Source: a phage
Strand: one strand, 5' to 3'
Assembly (NCBI GenBank): GCA_011911785.1
Contig: GCA_011911785.1_4084.1
DNA length: 64,000 bases
A program made the position numbers and the translations under genes. This document shows, piece after piece, positions 4,020 to 49,013 of the stretch (the stretch's first letter is position 1; each line of letters starts with the position of its first letter). The notes under the pieces were generated by a model that saw only the letters and a list, made by a program, of their open reading frames with translations, searched no databases and was not told the origin of the DNA.

Positions 4020-4973
4020 ATGACTACACTATGGACTGAAAAATATCGCCCACAAACCCTAGAAGATTACGTTTTCAAAAATGATGCTCTTCGTAAAAAG
4101 ATGGAAGAATGGATTTGTACTGGCAATATTCCACATATTGGATTCTTTGGTCCCGCTGGTACAGGAAAAACTTCAGCGATTAAAGTACTACTAAATGGAC
4201 TTGAAGCTAATGGTCACCTGGACCCAAGTGATGTAACAACTCTAAACATGTCAGATGAGGGTATTGATGCTGTGCGTGATAAGATTGACGCAGCCGCAAA
4301 ACTATCATGTTTTGGACGTTATCGTGTATTTGTTCTGGAAGAAATGGAACAGATGAACCACAAAGCACAAGGTAGCCTGAAGCGTGTAATGGAAGATTAT
4401 CACGAGAATGCTCGTTTTATTCTAACCAGTAATGAGCCACATAAAATTTTGAAACCTATTATTTCTCGTGTGCAAGTAATTACAATCGAGAAGCATGATA
4501 TGGAACAGTTTATGACCCGTATCATCAACGTACTGTTAGCTGAGGGTGTAGATTTATCATCCGAAGAAAGTATTGATCAAGTGCAGCAATACATCAATGC
4601 ATCGTACCCTGACTTCCGCAAAACATTAAACGTATTGCAGAGTTCAGTAGTTGATGGTAAACTAGTAAAACTAGAAGACAGTATTGAGAATTCTGCTGGG
4701 TATCGCACGGCAATCGTTGATGCATTAAAGGCGGGAAACATTCGTCAGATGCGTGAGCAGATTGTTCAAAATATCCCTGATGACGAAATGGATGCATTTT
4801 TCTCGTATCTGTATCGTAATGCAGAAATGTTCAGTACTGATGAAATCACACTAATGAAAATCAAGGTTAAAATCCGTGATGCAGTTGTCAAACAATCAAC
4901 AGTTTCTGATCGTGAGATGAACCTGAGTGCATTACTATGTGAAATTGACTTGATTTGTTCAGGAAATATGTAA
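4020..4973 (+). CDS. sliding-clamp loader ATPase subunit (T4 gp44 / RFC small subunit-like)
   Basis: Walker A GPAGTGKT; EKYRP N-terminus; SRV(C)-like motif; YPDFRKT box resembling T4 gp44 FPDFRKT; 317 aa vs 319 aa for T4 gp44. Confidence 0.8.
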   Translation: MTTLWTEKYRPQTLEDYVFKNDALRKKMEEWICTGNIPHIGFFGPAGTGKTSAIKVLLNGLEANGHLDPSDVTTLNMSDEGIDAVRDKIDAAAKLSCFGRYRVFVLEEMEQMNHKAQGSLKRVMEDYHENARFILTSNEPHKILKPIISRVQVITIEKHDMEQFMTRIINVLLAEGVDLSSEESIDQVQQYINASYPDFRKTLNVLQSSVVDGKLVKLEDSIENSAGYRTAIVDALKAGNIRQMREQIVQNIPDDEMDAFFSYLYRNAEMFSTDEITLMKIKVKIRDAVVKQSTVSDREMNLSALLCEIDLICSGNM

Positions 4974-8997: not shown

Positions 8998-9044
8998 GTT
9001 TATCACAGAGCAACACTATCTTAAATTAAATGAGGAATAACCTA

Positions 9045-10172
9045 ATGTCCGAGAAAGAAATCAATCCAAAAAAAGCAACTACCAAAACTTCTAAGCGTAC
9101 TACGACCAAAACCAAAGGTAATACTTTTGATGCGAGTGATATTTTCGACCAACAGTCTAAGACGTTACCAGTACTGAAAGATACAAAAGGTAACACTATG
9201 TCTTTAACTGTTCAGAACATTAACACCATTGGAACAACTGCTGGTGCAGGTGTCGGACGACTGGCTGATGAAATCATGTCAAAAGTGAACGTCACTGATG
9301 ACAATACTGAATTTGGTAAATCAATTACCACAATTTTATCACTAACCCGTGCTGTTGATATTGACAGTCTACAAGATGATAAATCAATTGTAGGTTGGGT
9401 CAAAAAACTCTTTGTCAATGCAAAACAGAAAGTTGGTGATCAGTACAAGAATAGTAAAGAGCAGATTGATGAAATCATGAACACACTCCAGGTTGGTATC
9501 AATCGCCAACATAGTGAATGTGAGTGGTTGGATACTGCTTACAATGAGAATAAAGCCTATCTATTTGAATTACGCGATACGCTGGTTGAATTGGAACAAG
9601 TTACAAAAACTCAAGATGCTAAACTGGAAGAAATGCAAGCGAACCCTGATGTGGATTCTTTCGCAATCCAAGAGCAGAAGATGATTTGTGAAGCATTGTC
9701 TAAACAGGAAGATAAGATTCGCCGTCTTATCATGATGTGTGAGCTTAGTGGCCCTCGTCTGATGAGTATGAAGAAAGTGAATCTAAACACTGTATCTAAA
9801 TTTGAAGATCTGAAATCTGTTGTCATCCCTGCATGGAAATCACAACTAGCAGAACAATTGATTTCTGAACGCCAACGCAAAGATAATGAGTTGGGTAATT
9901 TGATTGATAATGAAACTAACCGTTTACTTGAAGTGAACTCCAAAATGGTAGCAACTAATATGTTAGATGCTGCTAAAGCTAATAACCGTGGTATTGTGGA
10001 TATTAAAACATTGCGTAACGTACACAAAACAATGATCGATAGCATCGAAGCAGTACTGATTGAAGAGAAGAAAGGTAAGGAAGAACGTGAACGTGCTAAA
10101 CATGAAATTGCACAGTTGTCCTACGAACTTGAAGAAACTCTTCGCGAAATTGCTGACAAAGCTAACAAGTAA
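9045..10172 (+). CDS. hypothetical coiled-coil protein
   Basis: Start refined to ATG 9045 (RBS tgaggaataacctaATG); K/E-rich heptad-like C-terminal half. Confidence 0.55.
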   Translation: MSEKEINPKKATTKTSKRTTTKTKGNTFDASDIFDQQSKTLPVLKDTKGNTMSLTVQNINTIGTTAGAGVGRLADEIMSKVNVTDDNTEFGKSITTILSLTRAVDIDSLQDDKSIVGWVKKLFVNAKQKVGDQYKNSKEQIDEIMNTLQVGINRQHSECEWLDTAYNENKAYLFELRDTLVELEQVTKTQDAKLEEMQANPDVDSFAIQEQKMICEALSKQEDKIRRLIMMCELSGPRLMSMKKVNLNTVSKFEDLKSVVIPAWKSQLAEQLISERQRKDNELGNLIDNETNRLLEVNSKMVATNMLDAAKANNRGIVDIKTLRNVHKTMIDSIEAVLIEEKKGKEERERAKHEIAQLSYELEETLREIADKANK

Positions 10173-18933: not shown

Positions 18934-19330
18934 ATGTTACATTATCATTCGTGAAGACTTAGATATGCCAGTTGGGAAGCTTGCTGCTCAGGCGGGTCAT
19001 GCGGTTGATTCTATCTGGTCCACGATTACCGTTGCTGGTACATCAATTCGTGGTTGTAATGCTGTTGGTGAGAACCCAAGAGATGAAGATGAAAAGATCC
19101 TGAACGATTTCAGTACTTGGGTACAGGACGGTCGTCGCAAGATTATCTTAAAGGCTAAATCTGAAGAACAGATGCTTAATCTATTCGATAAAGTGAAAGC
19201 TGAAGGATTCACTGCAACTAAGATTCATGATTATGGATTCAACCATTTTGATGGTCTAACATTAACTGGATTCGTTGTGTTCCCGTGCACTGACGAAGTT
19301 AAAGCATTGAAAAGGGTAAGATTATGGTAG
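18920..19330 (+). CDS. PTH2-family peptidyl-tRNA hydrolase
   Basis: IIIREDLDM-PVGKLAAQAGHA resembles the PTH2 signature (R.DL.M..GK.AAQ..HA). Confidence 0.7.
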   Translation: MTVSKCYIIIREDLDMPVGKLAAQAGHAVDSIWSTITVAGTSIRGCNAVGENPRDEDEKILNDFSTWVQDGRRKIILKAKSEEQMLNLFDKVKAEGFTATKIHDYGFNHFDGLTLTGFVVFPCTDEVKALKRVRLW

Positions 19331-19704
19331 ATGAATTGGATAGAAAAATTGATGCTTTGTATAAATCAATTGAAACCAATGAGGTTACTGTATATTATGG
19401 GAGACAGAGTGTACAACAATCAAATTCATGTTTACGTTTAACCATAACCTTAGATTCAAGAGATAATCCATATACTTGTGTTTTCAAAGAAAGAAACACA
19501 ATTGAATGGATTGGTTGGTATATAGATGACCGTCTTTCATACCTTTATGATTTTGAAAATTATGATGGTTCAGAAGTTTACTTGAATTCAACTGAAGAAG
19601 AATTATTTCAACTATCATTAATTGAAAAACATGTAATGTCATATGACAATTTACAAAAAATCAAGTCAATAATGAATTATGCTCTATCTAAGGTAAAGCA
19701 ATGA
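19324..19704 (+). CDS. EEYFQ-motif family protein (family A)
   Basis: C-terminal STEEELFQLSLIEKHVMSYDNLQKI. Confidence 0.65.
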   Translation: MVDELDRKIDALYKSIETNEVTVYYGRQSVQQSNSCLRLTITLDSRDNPYTCVFKERNTIEWIGWYIDDRLSYLYDFENYDGSEVYLNSTEEELFQLSLIEKHVMSYDNLQKIKSIMNYALSKVKQ

Positions 19705-20141
19705 ACATTAAATTAGTTAAAAAATATATCAGTACTTTTAATAAAATTAAATTTATCAACGATGGTTTGACTGATCCTGAAGAACAAATTAAAAATACCA
19801 CATACGTAGGTCAGAATTGCTTTAAGATTATTATTGAAAATAATGTATTATCATTATCAGTTAATAATCTGGTATATGGTGATCAGATGTATATCGTGCA
19901 CAATGTTAATAACAATAACTTAGAAATTATGCTTCGTGATGATAATGTTATCAAAATATATCAGGTACAAAATGTAAGTGAATGCACTACTGAAGAGGGG
20001 TATTTCCAGGAATCACTGGTTCAAACATTTAATATTGATTTCAAGGATTTAAAATATCTCATGAGTACGCTAACAAAAATGCGTTCAGCTATCTTTAACA
20101 TCTTTTTTATTGATGAACAGCGACAAATGGATGTAAAATGA
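19701..20141 (+). CDS. EEYFQ-motif family protein (family A)
   Basis: C-terminal TTEEGYFQESLVQTFNIDFKDLKYL. Confidence 0.65.
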   Translation: MNIKLVKKYISTFNKIKFINDGLTDPEEQIKNTTYVGQNCFKIIIENNVLSLSVNNLVYGDQMYIVHNVNNNNLEIMLRDDNVIKIYQVQNVSECTTEEGYFQESLVQTFNIDFKDLKYLMSTLTKMRSAIFNIFFIDEQRQMDVK

Positions 20142-20560
20142 ACCCAAGAGATTGTTTTGATTTGTTAAAGGGAATGCCTATAGATTCACTAGTACCTGAT
20201 AATAGGTTTGAGCACAATCTTGATTTTCATGGTGAAAATTACAATGTATATATAAGCTACAGTGATGATGAGAGTGAAGAACTAACATTTGTGTTCATTT
20301 ATAATGTTTTTGAAGGTGATAAGTTGTTGGATGTTGAAATTGCATCATATACTGTCACAAATCAATACGTTATCGAAGATGAACTTCGCAACAAATTTGA
20401 TATAACACTGTACAGTACTGAAGAAGAGTTGTTTCAGTTAAGTACTATCAGTGATGTGTGCACAACCGTCGAAGAGTTAGCAGACGTTAAGAAAATCATT
20501 GACACTGTGTACAACAAGATATACAATACATTCCATATTGAGAAACAATTGAAAGGGTAA
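20138..20560 (+). CDS. EEYFQ-motif family protein (family A)
   Basis: C-terminal STEEELFQLSTISDVCTTVEELADV. Confidence 0.65.
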   Translation: MNPRDCFDLLKGMPIDSLVPDNRFEHNLDFHGENYNVYISYSDDESEELTFVFIYNVFEGDKLLDVEIASYTVTNQYVIEDELRNKFDITLYSTEEELFQLSTISDVCTTVEELADVKKIIDTVYNKIYNTFHIEKQLKG

Positions 20561-20901: not shown

Positions 20902-21153
20902 ATGAGTGAACATAGTGCAGTGCTAAAAAAGATTTTAAATGATCTGGGTAGTGAAATTGAAGTTTCAGACGAAGAATATGAATTTTGGAAAAAGGATTTT
21001 GAACAACTGTCCGAGAGTGATAAAGTGTTCAATATGATTGGTGTTGTCAGTCAGTACTTACTCGGTGGTGGTCGTGCTAGTGCTTCAATCCTTGCATCGG
21101 CAATCATCTGTACTGCCCGATGGTGTCAAGAAAAAAGTATTGACGATTTCTAA
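20902..21153 (+). CDS. hypothetical protein (83 aa)
   Basis: Start refined to ATG 20902. Confidence 0.45.
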   Translation: MSEHSAVLKKILNDLGSEIEVSDEEYEFWKKDFEQLSESDKVFNMIGVVSQYLLGGGRASASILASAIICTARWCQEKSIDDF

Positions 21154-21211
21154 ATTAGGAGATATAATGTTTGTATCAGAGAGAAAGAATGTATAAGGAA
21201 TTATATTTTGC

Positions 21212-21240
21212 TTGACAATGGAGCAATAATATTATACAAT
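21212..21240 (+). promoter_or_regulatory. sigma70-like promoter
   Basis: TTGACA, 17 nt, TACAAT. Confidence 0.5.
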
Positions 21241-21384
21241 TAATCAATCTTATACAACGAGGAAACTCCAATTGAAATATGTAATACTCCTTATTCCAGT
21301 GGGGTCATTCCGTGAAATTCTACCTACTGATGTACTGGATGGTCTTAAAAAGAGAAATCCACATAAGTTTTAAATAGTATTAAA

Positions 21385-21425
21385 AAGGACAATACTGGGC
21401 GAATATTCGTCCAGTATTTTATTTT
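21385..21425 (+). terminator. putative terminator (imperfect hairpin)
   Basis: ACTGGGCG-loop-CGTCCAGT then T-rich tract. Confidence 0.35.
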
Positions 21426-21439
21426 ATAAAGGATTATAG

Positions 21440-22300
21440 ATGGAACCGATACGTGTACTATCTTTGTTCAATGGGATGAGTGTAGGATATATTGCATTAC
21501 AAAATGCTGGTATAGCAGTTGATAAGTACTACTCATCTGAAATTGACAAATTTGCTATAGCTGAATCCCAGGCTAACTTTCCTGATATCATCCAATTGGG
21601 TGATGTAACCAAATGGAAGGAATGGGATATCGAATGGGACAAGATAGATCTACTGATGGGGGGTTTCCCTTGCCAAGCATGGTCAGTGGCGGGTAAACAA
21701 GGTGGATTAACTGATATCCGTGGTCAACTATTTCTGGTTATGGTTGATATATTCAATCATATTAAAAGTTTAAATCCTAACTTGAAATTCTTATTCGAGA
21801 ATGTTAAGATGAAGGAAGATTTCAAGGAATATATCAATGGTATATTGCAACTAACCCCAGTACTGATAAACTCCCAGCATTACACGCCTCACTTCAGGCA
21901 ACGTTACTACTGGTACAGTACTGATAAGTTATTCATACCACCTGCAATATCCAAAGCCCCAAAGCTTCAAGATATACTTGATGATGGTTGGTACACAGAC
22001 AGAACCGCTTCGTACTGTATTGATGCCAATTACTTCAAGGGTGGAGATCCGAATCAGTACTTCAATAAGTCAAGAAGACAAATCGTTTTCAAAGACCCTG
22101 ATATCAACAGGAACTTCCTGATTGAGAAGGGTAAACGAAATGTGGACTATCGACATTTGACAGTGCAAGAGTGTTGCATTTTACAGGGAGTTGATGTAAA
22201 CTATTTCAAAGTGTCAAGTAACACACAAGCGTACAAAATGCTTGGTAATGGCTGGACAGCACCTGTTATAGAACATTTACTTCGTGATATATTCTTTTAA
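21440..22300 (+). CDS. DNA (cytosine-5)-methyltransferase
   Basis: Motif IV GGFPCQAWSVAG, motif VI FENVKM, motif VIII-like RQRYYW, motif I-like LFNGMSVG; short (286 aa). Confidence 0.8.
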   Translation: MEPIRVLSLFNGMSVGYIALQNAGIAVDKYYSSEIDKFAIAESQANFPDIIQLGDVTKWKEWDIEWDKIDLLMGGFPCQAWSVAGKQGGLTDIRGQLFLVMVDIFNHIKSLNPNLKFLFENVKMKEDFKEYINGILQLTPVLINSQHYTPHFRQRYYWYSTDKLFIPPAISKAPKLQDILDDGWYTDRTASYCIDANYFKGGDPNQYFNKSRRQIVFKDPDINRNFLIEKGKRNVDYRHLTVQECCILQGVDVNYFKVSSNTQAYKMLGNGWTAPVIEHLLRDIFF

Positions 22301-22315
22301 CCATTAGAGGCACAA

Positions 22316-23700
<1,385 letters not shown>

Positions 23701-23704
<4 letters not shown>

Positions 23705-24144
23705 CAGTACTGCACCAATTAAAGAAAGTTAAACATCCGGTAGTTTATAATGATTGGCTACGCCAGAAGGAGATGGGGGACTTTTACTACCCAAAGTCTA
23801 AAGTACTGGCAACGTCAAAAACTATATACCTGAAATATAACGATGAAGATTGTTTGTGTATTCAAATGGGATTCCATCCTAAAGTTGGATTGTTTACATC
23901 AAATCAAACATTTTATAAATTTAGAATTCAAAAAGATACATTTAGTATTCACATTGAAAAGCATGACGTAGAAGATACAATATATCGTGTGGAAAGTGAG
24001 CCTTTGAATCTTGTTGGGATTCCGTACAATAATTTAGAAGAAATGTACTTTCAGCAGTTGACAATACAAGAAGACTTTGGTATGATAGGACTTCAAGAGT
24101 TAGAGATGATTAAACAAATTCGTGATATCTACTTTAAGGAGTAA
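23701..24144 (+). CDS. EEYFQ-motif family protein (family A)
   Basis: C-terminal NLEEMYFQQLTIQEDFGMIGLQELEMI; ATGA overlap. Confidence 0.6.
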
Positions 24145-31464: not shown

Positions 31465-32464
<1,000 letters not shown>

Positions 32465-32474
32465 TTAAAAAAAG

Positions 32475-33412
<938 letters not shown>

Positions 33413-33429
33413 CTGTAGTATTCAGTACT

Positions 33430-33621
<192 letters not shown>

Positions 33622-33622
33622 A

Positions 33623-33680
<58 letters not shown>

Positions 33681-33685
33681 CAATC

Positions 33686-33841
<156 letters not shown>

Positions 33842-33870
33842 CAAAAACGAAATTACAATAGGAAATTAAA

Positions 33871-34056
33871 ATGCAACTTTTAATTCTTTCAATATTGTAT
33901 ATTATTATAATGGTTCCGATATCAATACGTTTAATTACAGTTGAACGATTTTTATCGAAACATGGAAATAGGTCTATGATCTTTGTACCAATCGGTCTGA
34001 TATTGTTTGGTATATTTGCATTTATAATGGGAATTAACGCTACATTCATTTCATAG
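33871..34056 (+). CDS. small membrane protein (61 aa)
   Basis: ORF with two hydrophobic segments downstream of tRNA-Asn. Confidence 0.45.
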   Translation: MQLLILSILYIIIMVPISIRLITVERFLSKHGNRSMIFVPIGLILFGIFAFIMGINATFIS

Positions 34057-34065
34057 GAAACAAAT

Positions 34066-34547
<482 letters not shown>

Positions 34548-34554
34548 AAGAACG

Positions 34555-34587
<33 letters not shown>

Positions 34588-34588
34588 C

Positions 34589-34644
<56 letters not shown>

Positions 34645-34645
34645 T

Positions 34646-34879
<234 letters not shown>

Positions 34880-34882
34880 TGT

Positions 34883-35227
<345 letters not shown>

Positions 35228-48050: not shown

Positions 48051-49013
48051 GTGAAGAAACTAGACTTAAACGCAATTTCCGAAGAAGTACTGGATGAATG
48101 TTTTGCGAATGAAGAAGTCAATCCATTGGAAGCAATTGAACCATCAGAAGTTATTGAAGATGATATTCCACATAAAGTTCGTAGTAAAAGTAACATTAGT
48201 CTCAAGCGTCCAGTAGGTGTGACTAATGAATCCATCATCGAAGAGATTCGTGCTGGAATTAATGTAAAAAAGAACACTGACCTATTACTTCGTTATAACT
48301 ATGGTATGATCGTTGATGTTGCTTCAAAGTGTACATGTTATATTCCGTTTGAAGATAAAATTGCATATGGTGTAGAAGGTTTTATGCGAGCACTTAAAAC
48401 CTTTGATCTTAGTAAGAATGTCAAATTCATTACATATGCAACAACGTCCGTTTATATGACTATGTATAATGAAAGTTCAGATGCAAATTACATGGTGTAC
48501 TTACCACGTTATATGAGCGTTCATAACATCCAAGTACGTCGATTTAATGAATCATATCAACGTGAACACGGTAAGCGACCTACACCAGAATTAATCTCTG
48601 AGAGTACTGGTATCGAGCTTCAGCACGTTAAGAACTGTTTGTTATACCAGAATGCATATACGACTCTTGATGCACAACTGGGTTCAGATTCAGACGGAAC
48701 CCTTGGGGATATTCTGAGTTCATCTGCTCGTGATTATAACCTTAATGTTGATAGCATTTGTAATCCATTACGTTATGCAATCACAGAAATCATTGACGAA
48801 TTGAGTACTAAAGAACGAGAAATTATCATGCGTGTTCATGGTCTGGGGGATTACAAAGCAGAAACCCTTCGTGAAATTTCTGATAATGGATATGTTGATG
48901 ATAAAGGAAACATTGTTAAGTCCCGTTCATCTGTGCACCGAAAATATAGTGAAGCTATTCAAAAGCTTAAAAAAATAGTACTTGAAAAAGGGTACGAATA
49001 CGAAGATTTCTAA
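48051..49013 (+). CDS. RNA polymerase sigma factor, sigma70 family
   Basis: Region 2-like GFMRALKTFDLSKNVKFITYATTSVYMTM (cf. GLMRAVEKFD...FSTYATWWIRQ); region 4-like HTH STKEREIIMRVHGLGDYKAETLREIS. Confidence 0.8.
   Translation: MKKLDLNAISEEVLDECFANEEVNPLEAIEPSEVIEDDIPHKVRSKSNISLKRPVGVTNESIIEEIRAGINVKKNTDLLLRYNYGMIVDVASKCTCYIPFEDKIAYGVEGFMRALKTFDLSKNVKFITYATTSVYMTMYNESSDANYMVYLPRYMSVHNIQVRRFNESYQREHGKRPTPELISESTGIELQHVKNCLLYQNAYTTLDAQLGSDSDGTLGDILSSSARDYNLNVDSICNPLRYAITEIIDELSTKEREIIMRVHGLGDYKAETLREISDNGYVDDKGNIVKSRSSVHRKYSEAIQKLKKIVLEKGYEYEDF

What the first reader, a model, noticed from the sequence alone, without database searches (positions are those of the whole stretch)
21440..22300. 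Compact orphan cytosine-C5 DNA methyltransferase
Clear PCQ and ENV catalytic motifs sit in only 286 aa, leaving little room for a target-recognition domain, and no cognate restriction gene is adjacent. It is a likely anti-restriction or epigenetic-marking enzyme. Its target could be tested against the enriched AGTACT motif.
Basis: partly seen in the sequence, partly recalled or inferred. Interest (0 to 1): 0.45.

Follow-up and report, generated by a model that had tools for sequence, protein, structure and literature searches.

The report
Orphan phage cytosine methyltransferase, already annotated
This is a real, intact, stand-alone DNA cytosine-C5 methyltransferase gene that all RaK2/121Q-type giant phages carry and that databases already annotate; its target sequence is untested, and published data on a close relative argue against the enriched AGTACT motif.

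Summary
The ORF at 21440-22300 (+, 286 aa) is real and is a complete C5 DNA methyltransferase. It matches Pfam PF00145 (E=4.5e-36) and passes the TIGR00675 cut-off. Motifs I-X are intact, including catalytic Cys78 in GGFPCQ and ENV at 120-122.

The window is an Asteriusvirus (121Q/PBECO4-like jumbo coliphage). The identical protein is already in NCBI as "DNA cytosine methyltransferase". Orthologs at 64-87% identity occur in 121Q, PBECO4, GAP32, CBB, XbC2, Hallingskeid and a 347-kb Klebsiella phage.

The gene is under strong purifying selection (dN/dS 0.05). It has no conserved neighbour and no recognisable nuclease partner, so "orphan" holds.

"Compact" is true but common: 53 of the best 120 homologs are 260-305 aa. 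The fold is closest to the DNMT3A/B catalytic domain (TM about 0.79).

The AGTACT enrichment is real and striking (141 in genes against 31.6±5.4 under codon shuffling; it extends to CAGTACTG). The link to this enzyme is not supported. Erwinia phage Hallingskeid has a 77% ortholog and the same enrichment, yet published nanopore data found only GATC and CCWGG modified.

CCWGG is the best candidate target (about 0.4), but host Dcm is not excluded.

Verdict: ordinary and already known, with specificity untested.

The parts
21440..22300 (+). CDS of the 286-aa DNA (cytosine-5) methyltransferase, stop codon included
   Evidence: ORF list. PF00145 E=4.5e-36. TIGR00675 above its cut-off. Identical protein P0001 in NCBI. 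dN/dS 0.048 against 121Q.
21430..21433 (+). Shine-Dalgarno-like AGGA, 6 nt before the ATG
   Evidence: Read from the sequence.
21467..21487 (+). Motif I, F10-N-G-M-S-V-G16 (FxGxG, AdoMet binding)
   Evidence: Aligns to LSLFDGIATGY of DNMT3B. F10 and G12 are invariant in the family.
21668..21676 (+). Motif IV, P77-C78-Q79. Cys78 (21671-21673) is the catalytic nucleophile. The junction 21670|21671 is the empty insertion site of the intein found in phage A4.
   Evidence: Sequence. P77 and C78 invariant. A4 ortholog has 346 aa inserted between GGFP and CQAWS.
21797..21805 (+). Motif VI, E120-N121-V122
   Evidence: Sequence. Invariant in the family. Aligns to the ENV of DNMT3B.
21896..21904 (+). 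Motif VIII, R153-Q154-R155
   Evidence: R153 and R155 invariant. Aligns to RAR of DNMT3B.
21917..22150 (+). Variable / target-recognition region, aa 160-237 (about 78 aa). It holds the family-conserved SYCIDANYxKGG...KSRRQ. Relative to 330-aa homologs, about 45-50 aa are missing between K232 and R233 (22135|22136).
   Evidence: Alignment with the ICP1 and W22 homologs. Conserved columns C193, A196, Y198, K200, K210, R212. High pLDDT.
22151..22189 (+). Motif IX, R238-HLTVQECCILQ-G250
   Evidence: R238, L240 and E244 invariant.
22232..22279 (+). Motif X, Y265-KMLGNGWTAPVIEH-L280
   Evidence: Y265, G269 and N270 invariant. Aligns to KLLGRSWSVPVIRHL of DNMT3B.
21391..21428 (+). Intrinsic-terminator-like hairpin (12-bp stem) plus T-run, ending just before the ribosome-binding site. 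Transcription of the gene from upstream promoters would need read-through (inference).
   Evidence: Terminator scan.
21140..21240 (+). Two near-consensus sigma-70-type promoter-like sites (TTGACG-17-TATAAT and TTGACA-17-TACAAT, 11 of 12 each) upstream of the terminator
   Evidence: Promoter scan. The total number of promoter-like sites in the region does not exceed chance, so this is a consensus match only.

Best explanation
The gene encodes an active, stand-alone (orphan) AdoMet-dependent DNA cytosine-C5 methyltransferase that belongs to the conserved gene set of RaK2/121Q-type jumbo phages. Mechanism, from the established chemistry of the PF00145 family: motifs I-III bind AdoMet; the target cytosine is flipped out; Cys78 of PCQ attacks C6; Glu120 of ENV protonates N3; the methyl group goes to C5. 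A small DNMT3-sized variable domain (aa 160-237) reads a short site. Biological role (inferred): it methylates newly replicated phage DNA so that progeny are protected from host type II restriction. The most probable target is the inner C of CCWGG, or CCNGG, which would look the same because CCSGG is nearly absent from these genomes. In that case it duplicates host Dcm, much as T4 Dam duplicates host Dam. The enzyme identity and orphan status are shown here. Activity, role and target are inferred. My probability is about 0.9 for 'active orphan DNA C5-methyltransferase', about 0.4 for 'target is CCWGG/CCNGG', and no more than 0.05 for 'target is AGTACT'.
For: Identity: PF00145 E=4.5e-36; TIGR00675 116 bits against a cut-off of 100.65; all catalytic residues invariant; AlphaFold model with pLDDT 94; the top 50 PDB matches are all DNMT3A/B/C catalytic domains at TM 0.73-0.80.
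Functional constraint: dN/dS 0.048 against 121Q; orthologs at 64-87% identity across several genera and hosts.
Orphan status: no nuclease domain in the ten neighbours or in 28 larger window proteins; the downstream ORF is not syntenic in GAP32 or Hallingskeid; compact homologs P0041 and P0045 sit alone in unrelated phage contexts.
Target: in Hallingskeid the ortholog CDS0275 is one of only two predicted methyltransferases, and the virion DNA shows exactly two motifs, GATC (6mA) and CCWGG (5mC). Kaldavass has three methyltransferases and three motifs (PMC11780129).
CCWGG is not selected against in the window: 41 observed against 40.4 under codon shuffling. All CpG tetramers and GCGC, GGCC and AGCT are purged, which argues against a broad CpG or GpC specificity.
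C-5mC-WGG is the one C5 pattern that K-12 methyl-dependent restriction tolerates (established knowledge), and Sharanji is recorded on MG1655.
Against: No activity or specificity has been measured for this protein or any ortholog.
The CCWGG signal in the Erwinia phages may come entirely from the host. Full-length Dcm orthologs (68-73% identity) occur in many Erwinia species, including E. rhapontici, and the paper's authors raise the same caveat.
The protein is not a Dcm/EcoRII-family member. It scores 26.6 bits against a cut-off of 710 for NF007772, and shares 24% identity confined to the catalytic motifs, with no similarity in the variable region. A CCWGG specificity would therefore be an independent invention on a very small recognition domain.
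Neutrality of CCWGG is not diagnostic, because GGWCC, TGCA and CATG are equally neutral.
A terminator lies directly in front of the gene, so timing and level of expression are unknown.
Confidence: 0.6

Rival explanations
1. The enzyme methylates some other short site on phage DNA (neither CCWGG nor AGTACT) that the published nanopore analysis of the relatives missed, and protects against a different restriction system.
For: The variable region has no similarity to any enzyme of known specificity. Host Dcm can explain the CCWGG signal. Several C-containing palindromes are not selected against and so could be protected: TGCA, CATG, GGWCC, TGSCA.
Against: In Hallingskeid and Kaldavass, comparison of native and amplified DNA recovered 5mC at CCWGG, so 5mC was detectable there. 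Any frequent extra motif should have appeared as well. Most R-5mC-creating patterns would expose the phage to McrBC in K-12 hosts (established knowledge; host metadata).
Confidence: 0.22
2. One reading: the target is the hyper-enriched AGTACT (or GTAC / CAGTACTG), and the enrichment exists to carry this mark.
For: AGTACT is the most over-represented of all 4096 hexamers in the window, A4, 121Q and GAP32, and is equally enriched in Hallingskeid. All of these phages have the ortholog. The enrichment is independent of reading frame and of codon usage.
Against: Hallingskeid has 112 AGTACT sites in 30 kb, which extrapolates to about 1,300-1,400 per genome, yet no AGTACT or GTAC modification was reported. 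The methylated product would be A-5mC, a McrBC substrate, at roughly 900 sites per genome. There is no depletion of the deamination product AGTATT (57 against 44 expected). The phi92-like phage W22 and ICP1 carry 46-50% identical homologs yet avoid AGTACT (0 against 8.4; 4 against 13.3). That last comparison is weak, because their recognition regions carry an extra 45-50 aa.
Confidence: 0.05
3. The enzyme does not protect phage DNA. Its site is one the phage has purged from its own genome (for example GCGC), and it marks host DNA only.
For: GCGC is the only absent tetranucleotide: 0 against 34 under codon shuffling in the window, and 0 in A4, 121Q, GAP32 and Hallingskeid. This would explain why virion methylomes show nothing beyond host-type motifs, even though the gene is under strong purifying selection.
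Against: There is no positive evidence. The variable region is unrelated to that of M.HhaI: the PDB match covers only aa 4-151. No methyl-dependent nuclease was identified in the window. Site avoidance is more simply explained by restriction pressure.
Confidence: 0.06
4. It is a DNMT2-like RNA (tRNA C38) methyltransferase that serves the phage's many tRNAs. One relative's record labels it DNMT2.
For: The Turkey5 record calls the ortholog 'DNMT2'. The phage carries tRNA genes, six of them in this window. DNMT2 structures are matched at E=2e-8 to 1e-7.
Against: DNMT3 (E=5e-24) and M.HhaI (E=2e-16) match far better than DNMT2. [quoted passage not shown]
Confidence: 0.03
5. It is half of a cryptic restriction-modification pair whose nuclease is one of the unannotated small neighbours, for example ORF 22316-22813.
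For: Type II nucleases are often unrecognisable by sequence. The 165-aa ORF starts 16 nt after the methyltransferase stop codon.
Against: That ORF has a homolog next to the gene only within Asteriusvirus (46% to 121Q gp92), and none in GAP32 or Hallingskeid. There are no Pfam, PADLOC or NCBIfam nuclease hits. Its fold was not modelled.
Confidence: 0.03

Closest known systems
Orthologs in RaK2/121Q-type jumbo phages (121Q gp91 AIT13988, PBECO4, GAP32_390, CBB, XbC2 ORF400, Hallingskeid CDS0275)
   Same: 73-87% amino-acid identity over the full length for the named phages, the same 285-288 aa size, and the same genomic neighbourhood within Asteriusvirus. All are annotated as DNA cytosine methyltransferase.
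   Different: Nothing of substance. The window's allele is 100% identical to an NCBI protein (P0001). The phage A4 allele differs by carrying an intein.
Catalytic domain of mammalian DNMT3A/3B/3C
   Same: This is the best sequence match in the PDB (E about 5e-24, aligned over aa 2-281) and the best structural match (TM 0.73-0.80, 24-28% identity). It has the same roughly 285-aa size and an unusually small variable domain.
   Different: The phage protein has no PWWP or ADD regulatory domains and no DNMT3L partner. Motif X is GNGW rather than GRSW. A CpG-wide specificity is unlikely here, because every CpG tetramer palindrome is selected against in the genome.
E. coli Dcm / M.EcoRII (CCWGG)
   Same: Same chemistry, and possibly the same target.
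   Different: Dcm is 472 aa against 286 aa here. The two share 24% identity restricted to the catalytic motifs, with no similarity in the variable region. The protein fails the NF007772 subfamily model (26.6 bits against 710). No adjacent vsr gene was found.
M.HhaI / M.HaeIII (prototype type II C5 methyltransferases)
   Same: Same motif order I-X and the same fold. The N-terminal halves align at E=1e-14 to 2e-16.
   Different: Those enzymes are 327-331 aa, have a larger recognition domain and have a cognate nuclease. Here the domain is about 78 aa and there is no partner.
T4 Dam and other phage orphan methyltransferases
   Same: A stand-alone phage-encoded methyltransferase that may duplicate a host 'housekeeping' specificity to keep fast-replicating DNA fully modified (an analogy from established knowledge).
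   Different: T4 Dam is an N6-adenine enzyme of an unrelated family.
330-aa homologs in Vibrio phage ICP1 and phi92-like coliphages (W22)
   Same: 46-50% identity, and they share the SYCIDANYxKGG...KSRRQ block in the variable region.
   Different: They carry an extra 45-50 aa segment (with TxxLTT) before motif IX. Their genomes avoid AGTACT, and ICP1 has no CCWGG at all in 40 kb, so their specificity probably differs.

Membership tests
DNA (cytosine-5) methyltransferase, Pfam PF00145 / TIGR00675 | Profile score above the curated cut-off | tested here: met
   PF00145 scores 125.3 bits against a cut-off of 22. TIGR00675 scores 116.2 bits against 100.65.
DNA (cytosine-5) methyltransferase, Pfam PF00145 / TIGR00675 | Catalytic Pro-Cys dipeptide (motif IV) and ENV (motif VI) | tested here: met
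   GGFPC78QAWS and FE120NV. The residues are invariant in 54 homologs.
DNA (cytosine-5) methyltransferase, Pfam PF00145 / TIGR00675 | AdoMet-binding motif I (FxGxG), motif VIII (RxR) and motifs IX and X, in canonical order | tested here: met
   F10-G16, R153/R155, R238...G250 and G269-N270.
DNA (cytosine-5) methyltransferase, Pfam PF00145 / TIGR00675 | Two-domain methyltransferase fold | tested here: met
   The model has pLDDT 94 and pTM 0.91. TM to DNMT3 catalytic domains is 0.73-0.80.
DNA (cytosine-5) methyltransferase, Pfam PF00145 / TIGR00675 | Methyl transfer to C5 of cytosine in DNA | not testable with these tools
   Needs expression and a methylome or an in vitro assay.
Orphan (solitary) methyltransferase | No cognate restriction endonuclease in the locus | tested here: met
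   No nuclease family was found in the ten neighbours. There is no conserved neighbour across genera. Caveat: type II nucleases can escape profile searches.
Dcm / M.EcoRII subfamily (CCWGG) | Match to the subfamily model and a shared recognition domain | tested here: not met
   NF007772 scores 26.6 bits against a cut-off of 710. BLASTP and hhalign align only the catalytic motifs.
Dcm / M.EcoRII subfamily (CCWGG) | Methylates the inner C of CCWGG | not testable with these tools
   The only evidence is indirect: CCWGG 5mC in virions of two phages that carry orthologs, with host Dcm not excluded.
DNMT3 family | Catalytic domain together with N-terminal PWWP/ADD chromatin-reading domains, of eukaryotic origin | tested here: not met
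   The protein is the catalytic domain only (286 aa), with no other Pfam domain. The resemblance is in fold and sequence, not in architecture.
DNMT2 / TRDMT1 tRNA methyltransferases | [quoted passage not shown] | tested here: not met
   The sequence before and around motif IX is NVDYRHLTVQECCILQG, with no CFT. DNMT2 structures match 16 orders of magnitude worse than DNMT3.

The most novel reading that the evidence does not exclude
The enzyme is not a shield for phage DNA. It marks host DNA at a site the phage has eliminated from its own genome; GCGC is the only tetranucleotide missing from every RaK2-type locus read. Such marking could direct methyl-dependent nucleases (host McrBC/Mrr or a phage enzyme) to the host chromosome, or could reprogramme the host. 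This would reconcile strong purifying selection on the gene with virion methylomes that show only host-type motifs.
Probability: 0.06. Interest if true: 0.7.

Novelty: already known. Interest (0 to 1): 0.2.

Why it matters
As a gene call it adds nothing. The identical protein and dozens of orthologs are already annotated as DNA cytosine methyltransferase.

What remains open is the specificity of a very large family of minimal, DNMT3-sized phage methyltransferases. More than 7,900 relatives were found at E<=1e-10, and about half of the closest ones are under 305 aa.

If the enzyme does read CCWGG with a 78-aa recognition domain unrelated to Dcm, that would be a neat case of convergent specificity, and a small enzyme of some practical interest.

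The family's closeness to the DNMT3 catalytic domain also bears on the prokaryotic or viral origin of DNMT3. That is a comparative point, not a discovery made here.

Tried and rejected
1. Homology to enzymes of known specificity. The PDB sequence and fold searches return only DNMT3, HhaI, HaeIII, DNMT2 and Dcm-like chains, with no similarity in the variable region. The viral structure library gave only generic 'cytosine methyltransferase' names. The afdb50 library was unavailable.

2. Using the ICP1 and phi92-like homologs to infer specificity from their genomes' k-mer content. I rejected this because their recognition region carries an extra 45-50 aa.

3. K-mer 'non-avoidance' as a pointer to the protected site. 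CCWGG is neutral, but so are GGWCC, TGCA and CATG, so the test is not diagnostic. It only argues against CpG-wide or GpC-wide specificity.

4. A Vsr-type repair signature as the cause of the AGTACT excess. The deamination product AGTATT is not depleted, and no Vsr was found among the window proteins searched.

5. AGTACT as a SlmA-binding-site core. GAGTACTC occurs only once.

6. Checking whether the Erwinia host has Dcm. The single genome scan did not return E. aphidicola itself, only several other Erwinia species including E. rhapontici. Host Dcm is therefore likely but not shown.

7. Literature searches found no methylome or specificity data for Asteriusvirus or ICP1 enzymes, and nothing on the motif. 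The searches covered AGTACT plus phage, ICP1 plus cytosine methyltransferase, jumbo phage plus CCWGG, and CAGTACTG.

8. Rfam and tRNA scans of the 286-bp upstream spacer gave nothing.

9. I did not model the downstream 165-aa ORF. Its lack of synteny already argues against a cognate nuclease.

Full report
**1. Is it there?**

Yes. A single ORF runs from an ATG at 21440 to a TAA ending at 22300 on the + strand and encodes 286 aa. AGGA lies 6 nt upstream of the ATG.

- GGFP-C78-QAWS, with PCQ at nt 21668-21676.
- F-E120-N-V, with ENV at nt 21797-21805.

The remaining canonical motifs are present in the canonical order:
- Motif I, F10-NGMSV-G16.
- Motif II, E34.
- Motif VIII, R153-Q-R155.
- Motif IX, R238-HLTVQECCILQG.
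- Motif X, LG269-N270-GW.

The match is far beyond chance. Pfam PF00145 gives E=4.5e-36. NCBIfam TIGR00675 gives 116 bits against a cut-off of 100.65. PHROG 116 gives E=3e-59. The catalytic residues are invariant across 54 homologs.

**2. Where does the window come from, and is the gene known?**

The region is 94% identical to Escherichia phage A4 and belongs to Asteriusvirus, the 121Q/PBECO4-like jumbo coliphages of about 350 kb.

tblastn finds full-length orthologs:
- 86-87% identity in 121Q, PBECO4, Sharanji, G17 and phAPEC6.
- 73-78% in EJP2, Hallingskeid, XbC2, Kaldavass, GAP32 and CBB.
- 64% in a 347-kb Klebsiella phage.

Nearly all are annotated as DNA (cytosine) methyltransferase. The identical protein is in NCBI on a 359-kb contig under that name (P0001). 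Published genome papers on phAPEC6, Sharanji and XbC2 list the gene as a putative protective methylase, with no experiment.

The gene is clearly maintained. dN/dS against 121Q is 0.048, with synonymous sites saturated.

**3. Compactness and fold**

An AlphaFold2 model built on 54 homologs is confident (pLDDT 94, pTM 0.91).

The 50 best PDB fold matches are all DNMT3A/3B/3C catalytic domains, at TM 0.73-0.80 and 24-28% identity over the whole chain. By sequence, DNMT3B (E=5e-24) also beats M.HhaI (2e-16), M.HaeIII (1e-14), DNMT2 (2e-8) and Dcm-like chains (1e-3).

The variable region between motifs VIII and IX is about 78 aa and well folded. Compared with the nearest 330-aa homologs in Vibrio phage ICP1 and phi92-like coliphages, about 45-50 aa are missing just before motif IX. 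The missing segment contains a TxxLTT element.

However, the compact form is common: 53 of the 120 closest database homologs are 260-305 aa.

**4. Orphan status**

The ten flanking ORFs are 86-165 aa phage hypotheticals plus a PTH2 peptidyl-tRNA hydrolase. None hits a nuclease family in Pfam, PHROGs or PADLOC. None of 28 larger proteins elsewhere in the window is a restriction enzyme, Vsr or TET.

The ORF 16 nt downstream (22316-22813) has a homolog beside the methyltransferase only within Asteriusvirus, and not in GAP32 or Hallingskeid. Two compact homologs from metagenomes sit alone in unrelated phage contexts, one next to terminase and portal genes and one next to NinG and DnaB.

'Orphan' is therefore supported, with the usual caveat that type II nucleases can be invisible to profile searches.

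**5. The AGTACT question**

The enrichment is real and remarkable:
- AGTACT occurs 162 times in 64 kb against 21 expected from base composition. It is the most over-represented of all 4096 hexamers.
- It lies in all three reading frames (54, 45 and 37 sites on + strand genes, plus 4 on - strand genes) and in intergenic DNA (22).
- Within genes it occurs 141 times against 31.6±5.4 after synonymous-codon shuffling.
- It extends to the 8-bp palindrome CAGTACTG, at 38 observed against 0.6 expected.
- The same holds in A4, 121Q, GAP32 and Hallingskeid.

The link to this enzyme is not supported. Hallingskeid has a 77% ortholog, CDS0275. It is one of only two methyltransferases its authors list. That phage has 112 AGTACT sites in 30 kb. 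Even so, native-versus-amplified nanopore sequencing found only GATC (6mA) and CCWGG (5mC). Kaldavass showed those two plus TGCAT (PMC11780129).

Two further points count against the link. Methylating AGTA-C-T would create a dense array of R-5mC McrBC sites, while the relative Sharanji is recorded on K-12 MG1655 (McrBC specificity is established knowledge). The deamination product AGTATT is not depleted.

**6. What the target most likely is**

In the two Erwinia phages the number of predicted methyltransferases equals the number of modified motifs: two and two in Hallingskeid, three and three in Kaldavass. The only 5mC motif is CCWGG. CCWGG is therefore the best candidate for the C5 enzyme. 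CCNGG would look identical, because CCSGG is nearly absent from these genomes.

Three observations limit this:
- Dcm orthologs exist in many Erwinia species, so the host may be responsible.
- The protein is unrelated to Dcm outside the catalytic motifs.
- Under a codon-shuffle null CCWGG is neutral (41 against 40.4), but so are several other sites.

The same analysis shows strong selection against TCGA, GCGC, CGCG, CCGG, GGCC and AGCT. A DNMT3-like CpG-wide or an M.CviPI-like GpC-wide specificity is therefore unlikely despite the fold resemblance.

I put CCWGG/CCNGG at about 0.4, another undetected site at about 0.2, and AGTACT at no more than 0.05.

**7. Mechanism**

The chemistry follows from the established PF00145 mechanism: AdoMet binding by motifs I-III, base flipping, Cys78 attack on C6, Glu120 protonation of N3, and methyl transfer to C5.

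The biological role is inferred, not shown. I read it as post-replicative self-methylation that protects progeny DNA from type II restriction, possibly by duplicating the host Dcm pattern as T4 Dam duplicates host Dam.

Upstream of the gene are two near-consensus sigma-70-type sites and then a strong terminator that ends just before the ribosome-binding site. This suggests expression by read-through from early promoters, which is inference only.

**8. Comparison and verdict**

The protein is a member of the C5 DNA methyltransferase family; all sequence and fold criteria were met. It is an ortholog of already annotated jumbo-phage genes.

It resembles the DNMT3 catalytic domain but is not a DNMT3, because it has no regulatory domains. 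It is not a member of the Dcm/EcoRII subfamily. It is not DNMT2-like, because it lacks the CFT motif defined in PMC3227630.

Novelty: already known. Interest is low, because the only open question is the specificity, which a single cloning and methylome experiment would settle.

Noticed in passing
whole window (for example 21525-21530, 21859-21864, 21917-21922 and 22056-22061 inside the gene); also L001, L002, L004, L007: AGTACT is the most over-represented hexamer: 162 against 21 expected, and 141 against 31.6±5.4 under codon shuffling. It extends to the palindrome CAGTACTG (38 against 0.6). It occurs in all reading frames and in intergenic DNA, with near-Poisson spacing of about 395 bp. The excess is conserved in A4, 121Q, GAP32 and Hallingskeid but absent from ICP1 and phi92-like phages. 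It appears unmodified in the published Hallingskeid data. No mechanism is known.
   Followed up: partly
whole window; L001, L002, L004, L007: GCGC is the only tetranucleotide absent from the window (0 against 34 under codon shuffling), and it is also absent from every RaK2-type locus read. TCGA, GATC, CTAG, CGCG, CCSGG, CTGCAG, CAGCTG, GGATCC and others are also strongly purged. GATC is depleted even though a Dam-like adenine methyltransferase is reported in related phage genomes (Sharanji, phAPEC6).
   Followed up: partly
window 21670|21671; L001:6232-7269 (phage A4 A4_120): In phage A4 the ortholog is a 632-aa ORF with a 346-aa intein (Hint_2 plus LAGLIDADG_3) inserted exactly between Pro77 and the catalytic Cys78, which then also serves as the +1 extein residue. 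The window carries the empty allele. On the C-extein side, aa 78-190 are only 62-78% identical in DNA between A4 and the window, against 88-95% in the flanks. That pattern looks like a co-conversion tract from homing. The intein DNA contains no AGTACT.
   Followed up: yes
window 21140-21439: The 286-bp spacer before the gene holds two promoter-like sites that match 11 of 12 consensus positions, then a 12-bp-stem terminator. This could be a short leader or small-RNA unit. 121Q has only a 52-bp spacer at this position. There was no Rfam or tRNA hit.
   Followed up: partly
window 19324-19704, 20138-20560, 22861-23337, 23689-24144: Several small ORFs flanking the methyltransferase share a '...EE(E)LFQLS...' element, and two of them hit the same PHROG (36084). 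They look like a tandem family of paralogous hypothetical proteins.
   Followed up: no
L003 (Vibrio phage ICP1_2006_C, 84000-124497): ICP1 has no CCWGG (0 against 27.8 expected), no CCSGG or GGSCC, and almost no GGWCC (1 against 27.8) in 40 kb, although it encodes a 330-aa homolog of this methyltransferase and a Dam-like enzyme.
   Followed up: no
window 21440-22300 against L002:6001-6858: The gene is mosaic within the genus. Against 121Q the 3' third (aa 191-286) is only 70-75% identical in DNA, while the middle is 82-87%. Against A4 the pattern is reversed.
   Followed up: partly
window 31777-35217; 4020-4973; 9030-10172; 48306-49013: The window also contains a cluster of six tRNA genes (Ser, Gly, Ser, Met, Asn, Thr), a clamp-loader AAA+ subunit, a TelA-like protein and a sigma-70-like factor.
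   Followed up: no
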